NCBI RefSeq assembly: GCF_009914755.1
Contig: NC_060935.1
Strand: one strand, 5' to 3'
DNA from: the human T2T-CHM13v2.0 reference genome, Homo sapiens
Length of the DNA: 64,000 nucleotides
In this document: positions 42,748-55,057 of the stretch, one piece after another
Layout of the letters: each line of letters opens with the position of its first letter
How positions within the stretch are numbered: position 1 is the first letter of the stretch
Notes under the pieces: model-generated
What the model was told of the DNA's origin: nothing
The model's database searches: none
Seen by the model: the letters and a program-made list of their open reading frames with translations, nothing else
Program-made: the position numbers and the translations under genes

Positions 42748-42863
42748 CTACAAAGCAAAGGTTGGGTAACTTAGGAGGTCATTTACTTTTAACATTTGAA
42801 TGATATGCTCTTCAGAGATGCCATACTCATACTGGGTTCATCCACAAAAGTTACTAAAAGAAT
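42748..42863 (-). pseudogene. MMP13-like pseudogene exon 10 remnant
   Basis: FCG*TQYEYGISEEHIIQMLKVNDLLSY aligns without gaps to [28 protein letters not shown]; terminal Cys position reads TAC; acceptor appears AG>AA. Confidence 0.8.
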
Positions 42864-43494
42864 TTACAAGAAGTAAAATAAATTATTTTTGGTTCTTACT
42901 GGAGTATAACATCTGAAAGTCAAGTCCTAATTTCCTGGGCTCCCCTCCTAAAGAATTTTATTTTTTTGTGTGTTTGGTTGAAAAAGAGTGGTTACTGAAT
43001 GTCCACCTTGGCCAGATTTAACCAAATACTCTAAGAGAAAACAACTGGGAATAGAACACACATTCTAGCCCAACCCTTCCCAAATGTCTTTGAAAAAGGA
43101 AAAATCTAGATTGCTTGGTAGTGAATAATAGAAATAAAAACAAGTTAGGAAAATGGAGAAATGCTTTAGTGGTTTTAACAACAAGCAATTTTATTACATT
43201 TAAAGATTCCTAATGTTTAAACAATGAGGCAAAGGTCTATTTTTAAACAACTTAGTCTCACCTTGTTACCTTAATTCACTAAAGTGGAAGCCATTACATA
43301 TTTTTTAAAAAGCAGATTATCTGATAAAAAGCAATACACAAAAACAGAATGTAATGTTATTACATAATGTTTGGGAAATAAAAACTTTTCTCAGAAGAAA
43401 AAAATTATGTAACATCTCAAGATTTTTGAGATAATCTGCCTCCATACACACACACACACACTACATACACATATATATAGTATGTGTGTGTGTA

Positions 43495-44680
43495 TACATA
43501 TTCCTTATCTTACAATGGAGTTACATCCAAATAAACCCATCATAAATTGAAAATATCATAAGTCAAAAATGCATTTGATTCAACTAACCTACCAAATATC
43601 ATTGCTTAACTCAGACTACCTTAAATGTGCACGGAACACTTACATTAGCCTAAAATTGGGCAAGATCATCTAACACAAAGCCCATTTTATAATAAAGTTA
43701 TTATAAAGAATTTTGAATCAAAATTCAAAATTTGAAGTACAGTTTCTACTCAATGCATATATCTTGTGCACCATTGTAAAGTCAAAAAATCATAAGCTGA
43801 AGCATCATGTTGTAATGGAATGCAGGTCCAGTCGCTCACTGCTTGCAGAGTCCAATTAAAAGGAGCGAGGCCTGGTAGAAAGAAAGTGACCATATTTCAG
43901 AGCTAGCTGAGGGGAGGTAGTATAGGCTCCTGCCTTGAGGGCAGCATCTCAGTCTTCAGGCAGAAGACAGGGGCTTTTAAAAGGAGGGTTTGACATGAAT
44001 GGCATGTAGGGGAGGAAACAATGAGGTGTGGGGGTCTACATGACTTGCTTTGTGACTTGCTTCGGGTGTCGTATCTACTGGGTGGTCTGGCTGGAGCCAT
44101 CGCAGGCAGAGGTAAGCTGTAAATTGAAGCAATCTCCTGGTGGAAGAGAGTTCCAGAGACCTGATTTGCTTCAAGGTTTCTTCTGTGGAACTTCTAAGTA
44201 AACACATTGTTAGATAACCTTGCTGTGCCTGGTGGAGAGAAGGTAAAGGTTATAATTGCATTGCTAAAAAGCTAAGTAAAAGGGGCAGGGGCACGGTGAC
44301 TCATTCCTGTTTCTTAGCACTTTGGGAGGCCGAAGCGGGCAGATCACCTGAGGTCAGGAGTTCTAGACCAGCCTGGCCAATGTGGTGAAACCCCGTCTCT
44401 ACTAAAAATGCAAAAATTAGTTGGTCATGGTGGCAGGTGCCTGTAATCCCAGCTACTCGGGAGGCTGAGGTAGGAGAATTGCTTGAACCCAGGAGACAGA
44501 GGGTTGCAGTGAGCCGAGATCGCACCACTGCACTCCAGCCTGGGCGACAGAGATACTTCATCTGGAAAAAAAAAAAAAAAAAAAAAAAAAGGTTGGGGTC
44601 AAAAAGAAAAGAAATCCAAGAAATTCATTGTTTTCTCTTAAAAATAGGGTACTCATGTATAATATGTCAGGGACCGTCTC
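43495..44680. mobile_element. Nested repeats: MER47A-like Tigger, split by an ERV1-type LTR (about 43811-44660), which is split by an Alu (44288-44590)
   Basis: MER47A-like body ends at 43810 and its terminus (ggaccgtct) resumes at about 44670. Confidence 0.7.
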
Positions 44681-44688
44681 TCTCTCTG

Positions 44689-44740
44689 TCACACACACAC
44701 ACACACACACACACACACACACACACACACATACATACAC
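44689..44740 (+). repeat. (CA)n microsatellite
   Basis: Direct reading. Confidence 0.95.
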
Positions 44741-45480
44741 TCACCTCTCTCCTTAAAGTTGATTTATTGATATATTTAGCCTATAGTCTATCTTAACATG
44801 TGTAAGGCAAGAAACATCATAAACTAACTCTAAATTACAAAGAAATATTTTGAAGTATGGATGATGTTTGTTTCTTTTACCTCTCCAGTGATCCAGCCCT
44901 CAAATAAACCAATGGAGCCATGTAGGGATTAAGAGCACAGGCCAGGCCTTGGAGTCAGATGCACCAGCCAAAATCCCAACTCTGCCATTTATGAGCTCCC
45001 TGACTTTGGGCAGTTTGTTTCATTTTCGCCAACCTTCCCTTCCTCCTCTGTCAAGGAAGGGTCACATGAAGGCTTTCATGAGATGATGCAGGTAAAGAGC
45101 TAAACTCACTACATGGCTCCTGTGAAAGGGTTATTATATTCATTCATTTATTCGTTCATTCATTAGCTCACTCATTCACTGCCAGAAACTGTTCTTGGTT
45201 CTAGAGATAAGTATTTCTAACCAAAACAGACAAAAATTTCTGCTCTTGCAAAGCTGACATTCTGGTGCAAGGAATGACATATTCTTCTCCAGTATCTTTC
45301 AATCAATTTTCATCTCTCTTCTCTCACCTTGGTAATTCATCTCTACGTCATCACTGTCTCCTGTCCTGCCCTCTATTATCTCAGAACATTAGACTTAGCT
45401 GTCTTAACCTCACTACTGTACCACCAACCAAACTTTAAAACTTTAAAATCGGCCTTGTTCTTCTTGCAAATATTTGTAGT

Positions 45481-45776
45481 TATTATTATTTTGAGACAAG
45501 GTCTCACTCTTTCACCCAGGTTGGAGTGCAGTGGCACGATCTTGGCTCCCTAGAACCTTTGCTTCCTGGGTTCATGCAATCCTCCTACCTCAGCCCCCTG
45601 AATATCTGGGACCACAGGTGCATGCCACCACACCCAGCTAATTTTTTTTAACTTCTTGTAGAGATGGAGTTTCTCCATATTGCTCAGGCTGGTCTCAAAT
45701 TCCTGAGCTGAAGCAATCCGCCTGCCTCGACCTCCCAAAGTGCTGGGATTACAGATGTGAGCCACCACACCTGGCC
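45481..45776 (-). mobile_element. Alu (AluJ-like)
   Basis: Reverse Alu dimer. Confidence 0.9.
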
Positions 45777-54123: not shown

Positions 54124-54520
54124 GAAATTTAAAGGGTATTTTAAGCCACCTAGAAATGACTTAGTAACTGAGGATTCAAGTAAGAGAGATAAAGCCTGAT
54201 ATGGAATACGCAGAAGTGATTTGAGGATGATATAGACTTGTAGATCCTCCAAACACCTCCAGAGATCATCAAGCTTAATTCCTTTATATTACATTGAAAA
54301 ACAGTTCAAAGACATTGAGAAGCTTCCTTAAAATTGCACAAAGTGATAAACTTGGTGCTGGAATTAGAGCCTTAGCCACCTGGCTAGGATAGCCCAGAAT
54401 ACTCTGTATTATCCCAAACTACTTCTTAACACGTAAAGATGTGATCTGCAAAAGTGAACCCTGCCAGCTATAGCAACATTACACATTGCATAGAGAAAAA
54501 ATTATGAGCGACACGTTCAC

Positions 54521-54762
54521 CTGTGTGTCAGGATACCAGTTAGCTGCTTCATTTTCTTAGGGAAAAAAATTATACTCCACTGCGTCAGGAGTTTCACACT
54601 TTGGCTGCGTCACCAGGGCTAAAGTTTCAGCATCCAGTTGGCCATTTGATTCTAGACCAAAGAAGGCCTGCCATATGCTGGGGTCTGTTCTGCAGGAGCT
54701 TGGAGTTTCTCCTCTCCTCTGTGTTGATCTCAAAGGAAGTTGATAAAAGGCTTTCAAATATG
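54521..54762 (-). pseudogene. MMP13-like pseudogene exon 2 (propeptide)
   Basis: YLKAFY...QAFFGLESNGQLDAETLALVTQPKCETPDAVEYNFFP(+1 fs)KKMKQLTGILTHR|gt; 242 nt; preceding intron 85 nt vs 92 nt in MMP13. Confidence 0.93.
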
Positions 54763-54847
54763 CTAGAAAGATAGCACACAATCATCACCGTTAAATGAAA
54801 AAACTACATGCTCAATTAGGGAAACACCAACAGGAAGGACCTGTTAC

Positions 54848-54996
54848 CTCTGCAAGATGGAATTTCACTCCACATTGGTTAGGATATCTCATTCTCTAGA
54901 AGTACATAAGGGAACTGGTAGCAGCCAGCAGACAATGAGATTCCAGAGCACAGAGGCAATTTTCTCTGCCACTCGGTGGTCTGCAGATACCTTCAT
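54848..54996 (-). pseudogene. MMP13-like pseudogene exon 1 (signal peptide remnant)
   Basis: ATG...ASVLWNLIVCWLLPVP (cf. [11 protein letters not shown]), two TGA stops, ends CTTGCAGAG|gtaaca like MMP13 TTTGCAGAG|gtag; the start codon is tentative. Confidence 0.75.
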
Positions 54997-55050
54997 TTGG
55001 AGGTGAGTGTTTGGAGGGTGATAATTTGGGCATCTGCCTCACTGAGATGC

Positions 55051-55057
55051 TTTTATA
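55051..55057 (-). promoter_or_regulatory. Fossil TATA box of the pseudogene
   Basis: CCTATAAAAG, the same 10-mer as the MMP13 TATA box, at a near-identical distance (about 55 nt) from the ATG. Confidence 0.7.

What the first reader, a model, noticed from the sequence alone, without database searches (positions are those of the whole stretch)
42748..55057. A fossil multi-exon MMP gene lies in tandem directly upstream of MMP13 (candidate lost metalloproteinase)
Seen: eight exon remnants on the minus strand in MMP order (signal peptide, propeptide with PKCETPD switch, three catalytic exons, hinge, hemopexin exons 7 and 10) plus a TATA box. Exons 2-5 have exactly the MMP13 sizes and phases, and introns 1 and 3 are short as in MMP13. 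Identity is only 26/49 aa (exon 3) and 29/53 aa (exon 5), and it is concentrated in structural motifs (AFKVWSD, ADIMI, HGDF.PFDGP, HEFGH, KCDP, LRGE). Inference: this was an old tandem duplicate that evolved under purifying selection as a separate enzyme before dying, i.e. a unitary-type pseudogene rather than a retrocopy or recent duplicate. The ORF track shows only fragments of it. I cannot check whether it is already annotated.
Basis: partly seen in the sequence, partly recalled or inferred. Interest (0 to 1): 0.92.

Follow-up and report, generated by a model that had tools for sequence, protein, structure and literature searches.

The report
Dead MMP13-sister gene beside MMP13
Just upstream of the human collagenase gene MMP13 lies the decayed, intron-containing wreck of a separate, ancient sister gene whose relatives still look intact in some other chordates, so humans appear to have lost one matrix metalloproteinase.

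Summary
On the minus strand, window 42751-55059 (T2T chr11:102,962,751-102,975,059), there are collinear relics of MMP exons 1-7 and 10, plus a TATA-like box. Exons 8-9 were not found.

- **Structure:** exons 2-5 have exactly the MMP13 lengths (242/149/126/162 nt). All tested acceptors are AG. Four of six donors are mutated, and there are at least 3 in-frame stops and several frameshifts. RefSeq annotates nothing here.
- **Not a retrocopy:** the introns are retained.
- **Not a recent or dead-on-arrival MMP13 copy:** third codon positions are near saturation (146 of 279 differ). First and second positions that are invariant in eight working paralogues changed in only 21 of 165 cases (P=7e-26 against dead-on-arrival).
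- **Phylogeny:** the relic sits in a clade of unnamed chordate proteins (P0008, P0030 and others) that is sister to human MMP13. Being the exclusive sister of human MMP13 is rejected (AU p=0.014).
- **Other species:** other unnamed records (P0004, P0013, P0124) look like the same relic elsewhere.
- **Human genome:** no intact gene of this type is present.

Three things remain open: whether GENCODE already lists it, which species keep it, and whether any copy is intact along its whole length. Interest is moderate.

The parts
55050..55059 (-). TATA-like box CCTATAAAAG, about 55 nt upstream of the relic's ATG; the identical 10-mer sits at the MMP13 promoter
   Evidence: shared 10-mer at 39535 and 55059
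54848..54996 (-). Exon 1 relic (signal peptide). ATG at 54996-54994; 149 nt against 120 in MMP13; stop after 35 codons; donor GT kept at 54847-54846
   Evidence: P0013 residues 1-34 match 54996-54910
54521..54762 (-). Exon 2 relic (propeptide), 242 nt as in MMP13. Cysteine switch decayed to PKCETPD (54604-54584); TAA stop at 54559-54557; 1-nt loss in the first codon and further frame shifts; acceptor AG and donor GT kept
51819..54136 (.). Repeat insertions (L1-like ORF2 reading frames on both strands) inside intron 2, which lengthen it to 3835 nt against 645 in MMP13
   Evidence: hub repeat table; ORFs 51970-52665(-), 52787-53422(-), 53421-54110(+) (L1 identity recalled from their sequence, not tested)
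50537..50685 (-). Exon 3 relic (catalytic), 149 nt, open frame; acceptor AG; donor GT changed to AT
   Evidence: Pfam Peptidase_M10 43.4 bits
50283..50408 (-). Exon 4 relic (catalytic), 126 nt, with a +1 shift at 50373 and a -1 shift at 50333; acceptor AG; donor GT changed to GC
47776..47937 (-). Exon 5 relic (zinc site [12 protein letters not shown] at 47911-47876, Met-turn ALMYP), 162 nt, with two in-frame TAG stops at 47833 and 47788; acceptor AG; donor GT changed to CT
47240..47348 (-). Exon 6 relic (hinge and start of hemopexin, KCDP...LRGE), 109 nt against 118; acceptor AG; donor GT changed to AT
46022..46154 (-). Exon 7 relic (hemopexin blade 1), 133 nt against 134, with a -1 shift at 46036; acceptor AG and donor GT kept
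42751..42850 (-). Exon 10 relic (end of the hemopexin domain)
   Evidence: hmmsearch E 0.0029; nhmmer E 3.5e-6

Best explanation
This is the unprocessed, non-coding wreck of a once-functional archetypal matrix metalloproteinase gene. It had the usual parts: signal peptide, propeptide with cysteine switch, zinc catalytic domain, hinge and hemopexin domain.

The gene arose by ancient tandem duplication of the MMP13 lineage at the distal end of the 11q22 MMP cluster. It then evolved as its own enzyme under purifying selection, and was later inactivated in the human lineage.

Since inactivation it has drifted by roughly 0.14 substitutions per site. In that time it collected stops, frameshifts and dead splice donors, took up repeat insertions, and lost recognisable exons 8-9.

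Shown here: the anatomy, the lesions, the position in the tree, and the codon-position signature of past constraint. Inferred: the time of death, very roughly 60-120 million years ago if recalled human-lineage neutral rates of about 1.2-2.2e-9 per site per year apply. Also inferred is that relatives in other chordates are working genes.
For: **Anatomy and lesions**
- Exons 2-7 are collinear and far above chance. Exon 10 is found, and exon 1 with the TATA box.
- Introns are retained, and exons 2-5 have exact MMP13 sizes.
- There are 2 TAG stops and 3 frameshifts in 283 aligned codons, plus a TAA and more shifts in exon 2. Donors of exons 3, 4, 5 and 6 are mutated.
- Pfam Peptidase_M10 scores above its cut-off for the exon 3 and exon 5 frames: 43.4 and 46 bits against 24.

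**Closest human paralogue**
- By frameshift-aware score MMP13 is closest: 663, against 618 for MMP10 and 490-600 for the other six full-length paralogues (MMP7, which lacks exons 6-7, scores 445).
- In trees of human MMPs the relic pairs with MMP13 (UFBoot 95; 87 and 91 with other guide proteins).

**Relatives in other chordates**
- With library relatives added the tree is ((relic,P0008)76,P0030)95, joined with P0082/P0099/P0048 (98), and sister to human MMP13 (96).
- The AU test rejects the relic as exclusive sister of human MMP13 (p 0.014) and rejects it lying outside that clade (p 0.046).
- 11 residues are shared only by the relic and P0008, against at most 3 for the eight human and library reference proteins tested, and 5, 2, 2 and 0 for its four clade-mates.

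**Past constraint**
- Identity to MMP13 at codon positions 1/2/3 is 0.67/0.70/0.48.
- At amino-acid columns invariant in 8 working paralogues the relic keeps 66 of 86. Working genes left out in turn change 0-9% of such sites; the relic changes 22-25%.
- Dead-on-arrival is rejected (P=7e-26; fourfold-degenerate sites 26 of 55, P=8e-5).

**No intact human counterpart**
- Searches of the human genome with the Pfam profile and with P0008 hit only the relic, a second relic and loci whose chromosome positions I take, from recall, to be the known MMP genes, plus one weak 30%-identity hit on chromosome 8.
Against: - No relative has been shown intact over its full length. P0008 has a complete catalytic domain (212 bits) but no Pfam hemopexin hit. 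P0030's model lacks the zinc site and keeps only 43 of 53 invariant residues.
- The trees use only 283 columns and the relic's branch is long (0.85-1.17), so long-branch effects cannot be excluded. The relic+P0008 pair alone has UFBoot 76.
- The reading of the relic's codons was guided by MMP13. I checked this with MMP3 and MMP8 as guides; support fell to 91 and 87.
- The exon 1 and promoter alignment is not significant as a whole (z 1.3).
- The date depends on substitution rates recalled from memory, and on the assumption that invariant sites were fully constrained before death.
Confidence: 0.82

Rival explanations
1. Dead-on-arrival duplicate: a tandem copy of MMP13 that was never functional and has drifted neutrally since the duplication.
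For: MMP13 is the closest human paralogue. The copy sits next to MMP13 in the same orientation, and its promoter-proximal words are shared.
Against: Neutral drift estimated from invariant first and second positions is 0.139 per site. That predicts 23% third-position difference from MMP13, but 146 of 279 (52%) is seen (P=7e-26); at fourfold sites 26 of 55 differ (P=8e-5). The relic groups with other species' proteins to the exclusion of human MMP13, and the exclusive-sister topology is rejected (AU p 0.014).
Confidence: 0.03
2. Relic of a different cluster lineage (stromelysin-like MMP3/10, or a deep independent branch such as the amphibian MMP18 type) rather than a sister of MMP13.
For: Single-exon searches do not single out MMP13. 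The exon 3 frame scores 50.8 bits to mouse MMP13 against 50 to MMP3, and the exon 5 frame scores best to MMP9 and MMP20. MMP3 scores higher than MMP13 on exons 3 and 4. In Xenopus, MMP18 lies next to MMP13 (passages of PMC2656525).
Against: Over all exons MMP13 scores best (663 against 618 or less). Every tree pairs the relic or its clade with MMP13 (UFBoot 87-96). Placement outside the MMP13 clade is rejected, though only marginally (AU p 0.046). No MMP18 sequence was available to test.
Confidence: 0.07
3. The locus is dead as a protein gene but has been kept for another use, for instance as a non-coding transcript or as regulatory DNA for MMP13.
For: A TATA-like box and a start codon survive. 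Other species' annotations made protein models from the same relic (P0013, P0030), which may reflect transcripts. This is a weak lead.
Against: Nothing here shows transcription or conservation beyond neutral. The AP-1-like word next to the TATA box is changed from TGACTCA to TGAATCT (read directly; calling it an AP-1 site is from recall). Decay at invariant sites fits neutrality.
Confidence: 0.08
4. Chance similarity, or a processed pseudogene (retrocopy) broken up by insertions.
For: None beyond the low identity (about 50% at the amino-acid level).
Against: Six exons are collinear, with E-values from 5e-5 to 7e-17. Homology stops at the MMP13 exon boundaries, where AG acceptors are kept, and introns 1 and 3 are short as in MMP13. 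Promoter words are shared.
Confidence: 0.01

Closest known systems
Human MMP13 (collagenase 3), the neighbouring gene at window 26765-39501
   Same: Same strand and 10-exon plan, with identical lengths for exons 2-5 and short introns 1 and 3. It is the best-scoring human paralogue and the sister in trees.
   Different: Only 141 of 279 codons encode the same residue. The relic has stops, frameshifts and dead donors, and no detectable exons 8-9. It belongs to a separate clade with other species' proteins.
Unnamed chordate proteins P0008, P0030, P0005 (nearest relatives) and P0004, P0013, P0124 (apparent relics of the same locus in other species)
   Same: P0008 shares 11 residues with the relic that no reference protein has. 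P0013 starts MKVSAD like the relic's exon 1. P0004 matches even the read-through past the exon 3 donor. P0030's exon 2 matches at 44.6% with E 4e-17, better than MMP13's 37%.
   Different: P0008 has an open frame through exons 1-7 with all catalytic motifs, and keeps 77 of 85 invariant residues against the relic's 66 of 85. The taxa are unknown; the Atlas only says the nearest clusters are chordate.
MMP23A, the one human MMP pseudogene named in the papers seen (passages of PMC9085222)
   Same: It is a non-functional member of the human MMP family.
   Different: Those passages describe MMP23A as a duplicated copy of MMP23B and likely a pseudogene. This relic is ancient and highly decayed, and its own lineage has no working counterpart in the human genome.
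Xenopus mmp13l and the 'collagenase 3-like' genes of fish and birds
   Same: By their names they are second MMP13-type genes in other vertebrates (search listing; passages of PMC9007347).
   Different: No sequence of any of them was available here, so any link to the relic is an untested lead.

Membership tests
Matrixin / MMP (Pfam PF00413 Peptidase_M10) | Profile match above the curated cut-off | tested here: met
   Exon 3 frame scores 43.4 bits and exon 5 frame 46 bits against a cut-off of 24. The genome scan gives 65.3 and 40.5 bits at the two exons.
Matrixin / MMP (Pfam PF00413 Peptidase_M10) | Zinc-binding motif HExxHxxGxxH and Met-turn | tested here: met
   [12 protein letters not shown] at 47911-47876, and ALMYP follows. 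Two TAG stops lie downstream in the same exon.
Matrixin / MMP (Pfam PF00413 Peptidase_M10) | Cysteine-switch PRCGxPD in the propeptide | tested here: inconclusive
   The relic reads PKCETPD. The cysteine is kept, and 3 of 7 positions differ from the PRCGVPD seen in all 9 human cluster genes aligned. Pfam PG_binding_1 was not detected.
Matrixin / MMP (Pfam PF00413 Peptidase_M10) | Hemopexin domain of four blades (exons 6/7-10) | tested here: not met
   Only exon 7 and exon 10 relics are found. Exons 8-9 are absent from all searches, and there is no Pfam Hemopexin hit.
Working protein-coding MMP gene | Open reading frame and usable splice sites | tested here: not met
   At least 3 stops and at least 5 frameshifts are present. 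Donors of exons 3, 4, 5 and 6 read AT, GC, CT and AT.
Unitary (unprocessed, lineage-lost) pseudogene | Introns retained at the parental positions | tested here: met
Unitary (unprocessed, lineage-lost) pseudogene | Evidence of past purifying selection | tested here: met
   Codon-position identities are 0.67/0.70/0.48. Invariant-site change is 21 of 165 bases, against 146 of 279 at third positions.
Unitary (unprocessed, lineage-lost) pseudogene | No working counterpart of the same lineage in the same genome | tested here: met
   The Pfam profile and P0008 run against the whole human assembly hit only the relic, a second relic, one weak 30%-identity hit on chromosome 8, and loci that I matched to the known MMP genes by recalled chromosome positions, not by a call.
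Unitary (unprocessed, lineage-lost) pseudogene | Intact syntenic orthologue in another species | tested here: inconclusive
   P0008 is open through exons 1-7 with a full catalytic domain but shows no hemopexin hit. Its species and synteny are unknown.
Processed pseudogene (retrocopy) | No introns; copy of a spliced mRNA | tested here: not met
   Exon relics are separated by introns of 85 to 3835 nt, with AG acceptors.

The most novel reading that the evidence does not exclude
The relic marks a tenth archetypal MMP gene of the ancestral 11q22-type cluster. It would be a sister of MMP13 that is still a working collagenase-like enzyme in some living vertebrates, possibly the gene called mmp13l or 'collagenase 3-like' there. 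It would have been lost in the human lineage, and apparently in other placentals too, around the early placental radiation. Humans would then lack an enzyme that model organisms may still use.
Probability: 0.5. Interest if true: 0.6.

Novelty: new member of a known kind. Interest (0 to 1): 0.45.

Why it matters
The human MMP family is usually counted as 23 genes plus the MMP23A pseudogene, and reviews treat the 11q22 cluster as nine genes.

- A decayed tenth member with living relatives changes how the cluster's history is reconstructed.
- It gives a concrete case of a protease lost in our lineage.
- It warns that MMP13-type functions studied in animals that keep the sister gene may be split between two enzymes there.
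- It is a candidate for annotation, since RefSeq lists nothing at this place.

Tried and rejected
- **Word-indexed protein database** (longer proteins only): no hit for the exon 3 fragment, so it gave no comparison.
- **Exons 8 and 9:** I looked with MMP13 tblastn, DNA alignment, exon protein profiles, exon DNA profiles and the hemopexin parts of P0030, P0048 and P0099. The only hits were chance-level: E 0.49 at 43446-43421, in a stretch that translates as an H/T/C-rich run beside a (CA)n-type repeat (my reading of the ORFs), and E 0.02 at 53132-53100, which is inside the repeat insertion and out of order.
- **Promoter and exon 1 global alignment:** not significant, so I replaced it with a shared-word test.
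- **More outgroup loci:** Outgroups were taken from the short loci and one 8 kb MMP9 stretch.
- **Literature:** seven searches, with passages read from PMC12649390, PMC2656525, PMC1867822, PMC9085222, PMC2864566, PMC10195156 and PMC9007347. None describes this relic. The one supplement of PMC10195156 held as text has no MMP entry.
- **Rejected readings:** chance similarity, retrocopy and dead-on-arrival copy (see rivals).
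Full report
**What is there**

The window is human chr11 (T2T) and MMP13 is annotated at 26765-39501 on the minus strand. I built the MMP13 protein from the annotated CDS and ran tblastn against the window. This finds six further collinear minus-strand matches upstream of MMP13:

| Exon | Window position | Amino-acid identity | E-value |
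|---|---|---|---|
| 2 | 54760-54560 | 37% | 5e-9 |
| 3 | 50708-50526 | 46% | 7e-17 (joint with exon 4) |
| 4 | 50409-50281 | 49% | 7e-17 (joint with exon 3) |
| 5 | 47962-47774 | 49% | 3e-12 |
| 6 | 47355-47233 | 43% | 5e-5 |
| 7 | 46174-46037 | 41% | 2e-5 |

At DNA level these exons score 63-130 by Smith-Waterman, against shuffle maxima of 32-37.5. Exons 1, 8, 9 and 10 were not detected that way. DNA identity within the exons is 132/225, 101/149, 95/126, 113/162, 80/118 and 87/134.

**Exon and intron anatomy**

Mapping the MMP13 exon ends onto the relic gives these exons:

| Exon | Window position | Length (nt) | MMP13 length (nt) |
|---|---|---|---|
| 2 | 54762-54521 | 242 | 242 |
| 3 | 50685-50537 | 149 | 149 |
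| 4 | 50408-50283 | 126 | 126 |
| 5 | 47937-47776 | 162 | 162 |
| 6 | 47348-47240 | 109 | 118 |
| 7 | 46154-46022 | 133 | 134 |

- All six acceptors are AG.
- Donors are GT at exons 2 and 7. They are AT, GC, CT and AT at exons 3, 4, 5 and 6.
- Intron 1 is 85 nt (MMP13: 92) and intron 3 is 128 nt (MMP13: 176).
- Intron 2 is 3835 nt (MMP13: 645). It holds the repeat block 51819-54136, which carries L1-like reading frames (the L1 identity is recalled, not tested).

**Exon 10**

Profiles built from the human paralogues' exons find it as the best hit in the whole 24.4 kb upstream region, in the right order and on the right strand. The protein profile hits 42837-42751 at E 0.0029. The DNA profile hits 42850-42778 at E 3.5e-6.

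**Exon 1 and the TATA box**

A global alignment of the MMP13 promoter plus exon 1 with 55180-54835 is not significant (z 1.3). The two regions do share CCTATAAAAG, CTCATTGTC and TTGCAGAGGTA in the same order and at the expected places. The last of these is the exon 1 donor, 85 nt before the exon 2 acceptor. That gives 7 shared 9-mers, and 0 of 352 control segments reach this number.

The relic's ATG is at 54996-54994. Its exon 1 is 149 nt against 120 in MMP13, and it runs into a stop after 35 codons. An unnamed library protein, P0013, begins MKVSAD exactly like this frame and matches 54996-54910.

**Exons 8 and 9**

No method found them.

**Lesions**

A frameshift-aware alignment of 283 codons shows the following:
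- TAG stops at 47833 and 47788.
- One-base shifts at 50373 (+1), 50333 (-1) and 46036 (-1).
- Four in-frame codon indels.

Exon 2 also has a TAA at 54559-54557 and a lost base in its first codon. Judged by which frame matches other MMPs, it has two more shifts in its middle. The catalytic motif [12 protein letters not shown] and the Met-turn survive, and the cysteine switch reads PKCETPD. This is not a working gene.

**Which MMP is it?**

Single exons do not single out MMP13. In PDB searches the exon 3 frame scores about equally to MMP13 and MMP3, and the exon 5 frame scores best to MMP9, MMP20 and MMP8.

I fetched the other cluster genes from the same assembly and modelled their exons 2-9; all models gave open frames. 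Summed frameshift-aware scores of the relic against each are:

| Paralogue | Score |
|---|---|
| MMP13 | 663 |
| MMP10 | 618 |
| MMP3 | 600 |
| MMP27 | 545 |
| MMP8 | 534 |
| MMP12 | 525 |
| MMP1 | 522 |
| MMP20 | 490 |

A maximum-likelihood tree (334 columns, LG+I+G4) pairs the relic with MMP13: SH-aLRT 90.6, UFBoot 95. The relic's branch is 1.17 against 0.22 for MMP13. Re-reading the relic with MMP8 or MMP3 as guide keeps the pair at UFBoot 87 and 91.

**Was it ever alive?**

That pattern would also arise for a dead-on-arrival copy, because MMP13 itself conserves those motifs. I therefore used other tests.

1. Identity to MMP13 by codon position is 0.67/0.70/0.48, the same pattern as between working paralogues.

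2. At the 91 amino-acid columns invariant in eight working cluster genes, the relic keeps 66 of 86 readable residues. Only 21 of 165 invariant first and second-position bases changed (0.127; Jukes-Cantor distance 0.139). Working genes left out in turn change 0-9% of such sites, while the relic changes 22-25%. Constraint has therefore been lost, but not for long.

3. If the copy had been neutral since duplication, 0.139 per lineage predicts 23% third-position difference from MMP13. The observed figure is 146 of 279 (P=7e-26). At fourfold-degenerate sites it is 26 of 55 (P=8e-5).

The duplication is therefore much older than the death.

**Relatives elsewhere**

I ran the 59-residue exon 3 frame against 1.84 billion cluster representatives. 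This gave 197 hits at E<=0.001. One is the human frame itself (P0001, 100%). None lies between 60% and 100% identity.

Among the 149 hits other than P0001, 8 match the relic best and 3 match P0008 best. The informative ones are:
- **P0004 and P0013** share the relic's FWDTADI and VQA features. P0004 also shares the read-through past the exon 3 donor. P0013 shares the MKVSAD start.
- **P0124** is a more decayed copy. From recall, its tail looks like a translated ruminant-type SINE; I did not test this.
- **P0005 and P0008** look intact over this exon.

P0030's exon 2 matches the relic at 44.6% with E 4e-17, better than MMP13 does.

In a 28-taxon tree (283 columns) the relic pairs with P0008 (94.9/99). 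This pair lies within a clade with P0048, P0066, P0099 and P0082 (96.8/99) that is sister to human MMP13 (94.3/96).

A 19-taxon tree gives ((relic,P0008)76,P0030)95, joined with (P0082,(P0099,P0048)) at 98, and sister to MMP13 at 96. The AU test rejects the relic as exclusive sister of human MMP13 (p 0.014) and rejects it lying outside this clade (p 0.046).

Eleven residues are shared by the relic and P0008 and by no reference protein. The eight human and library reference proteins tested share at most 3 with the relic in this way, and the four clade-mates 5, 2, 2 and 0.

P0008 has a complete Peptidase_M10 domain (212 bits) and keeps 77 of 85 invariant residues, like working genes. However, its model has no Pfam hemopexin hit. 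P0030's model lacks the zinc site and keeps 43 of 53. The Atlas places P0008 among chordate MMP clusters and gives no finer taxon.

Searching the human assembly with the Pfam profile and with P0008 finds the relic, a second relic, one weak 30%-identity hit on chromosome 8, and loci whose chromosome positions I take, from recall, to be the known MMP genes.

**Most likely history**

An ancient tandem duplication of the MMP13 lineage produced a second gene at the distal end of the cluster. That gene evolved under constraint as its own enzyme. It lost constraint in the lineage leading to humans about 0.14 substitutions per site ago. With recalled human-lineage neutral rates of about 1.2-2.2e-9 per site per year, that is on the order of 60-120 million years. 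This date is an inference only.

Apparent relics in other unnamed records suggest that the loss is shared with, or repeated in, other mammals. This could not be tested, because the tools hold no named vertebrate genomes.

**Is it known?**

RefSeq, in the hub's table, annotates nothing between MMP13 and the window end. Seven literature searches and passages from seven papers gave no description of it. The passages seen name only MMP23A as a human MMP pseudogene.

An existing automatic or manual pseudogene entry is quite possible.

**Verdict**

The finding is a new, or at least unannotated in RefSeq, member of a well-known kind: an ancient unprocessed pseudogene in a tandem gene family. Its added interest is that it represents a distinct MMP13-sister lineage with living relatives. 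Interest is moderate (0.45), not 0.92.

Noticed in passing
outside the window: G000:C11 about 102755100-102758100, minus strand (locus L045, bases 3148-6011): A second MMP relic lies between MMP8 and MMP10. It has pieces matching exons 2, 3, 4, 8 and 9 and is closest to MMP1 (summed 337 bits, against 233 for MMP3; 70% identity in exon 2 and 64% in exon 8). It also hits Pfam Peptidase_M10 at 37 bits.
   Followed up: partly
window 48000-49100: A G+C-rich island (0.51, against 0.32-0.44 around it) sits inside the relic's intron 4, with an open frame of 171 codons at 48561-49076 on the minus strand. I did not determine its nature (repeat, CpG island or other).
   Followed up: no
window 51819-54136: The repeat block in intron 2 carries L1 ORF2-like frames in opposite orientations (51970-52665 and 52787-53422 on minus; 53421-54110 on plus). 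This suggests two insertions or an inverted rearrangement.
   Followed up: no
library proteins P0013 (120 aa) and P0030 (341 aa): Other species' records present the same locus as protein models although they look decayed. P0013 joins exon 1, exon 3 and an out-of-frame exon 4. P0030 lacks the zinc-binding exon. They are probably mis-annotated pseudogenes.
   Followed up: partly
window 43400-43510 and 44690-44750: The translated frames suggest (CA)n/(TG)n-type microsatellites (my reading, not tested with a repeat finder) in the interval where exons 8-9 would be expected. The weak exon 9 DNA hit at 43446-43421 falls beside the first one.
   Followed up: no
G000:C8:26531130-26531630, minus strand: P0008 gives a weak hit here (36.7 bits, 30% identity, three stops) outside any place where I expect an MMP gene. 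It may be chance or another metzincin.
   Followed up: no
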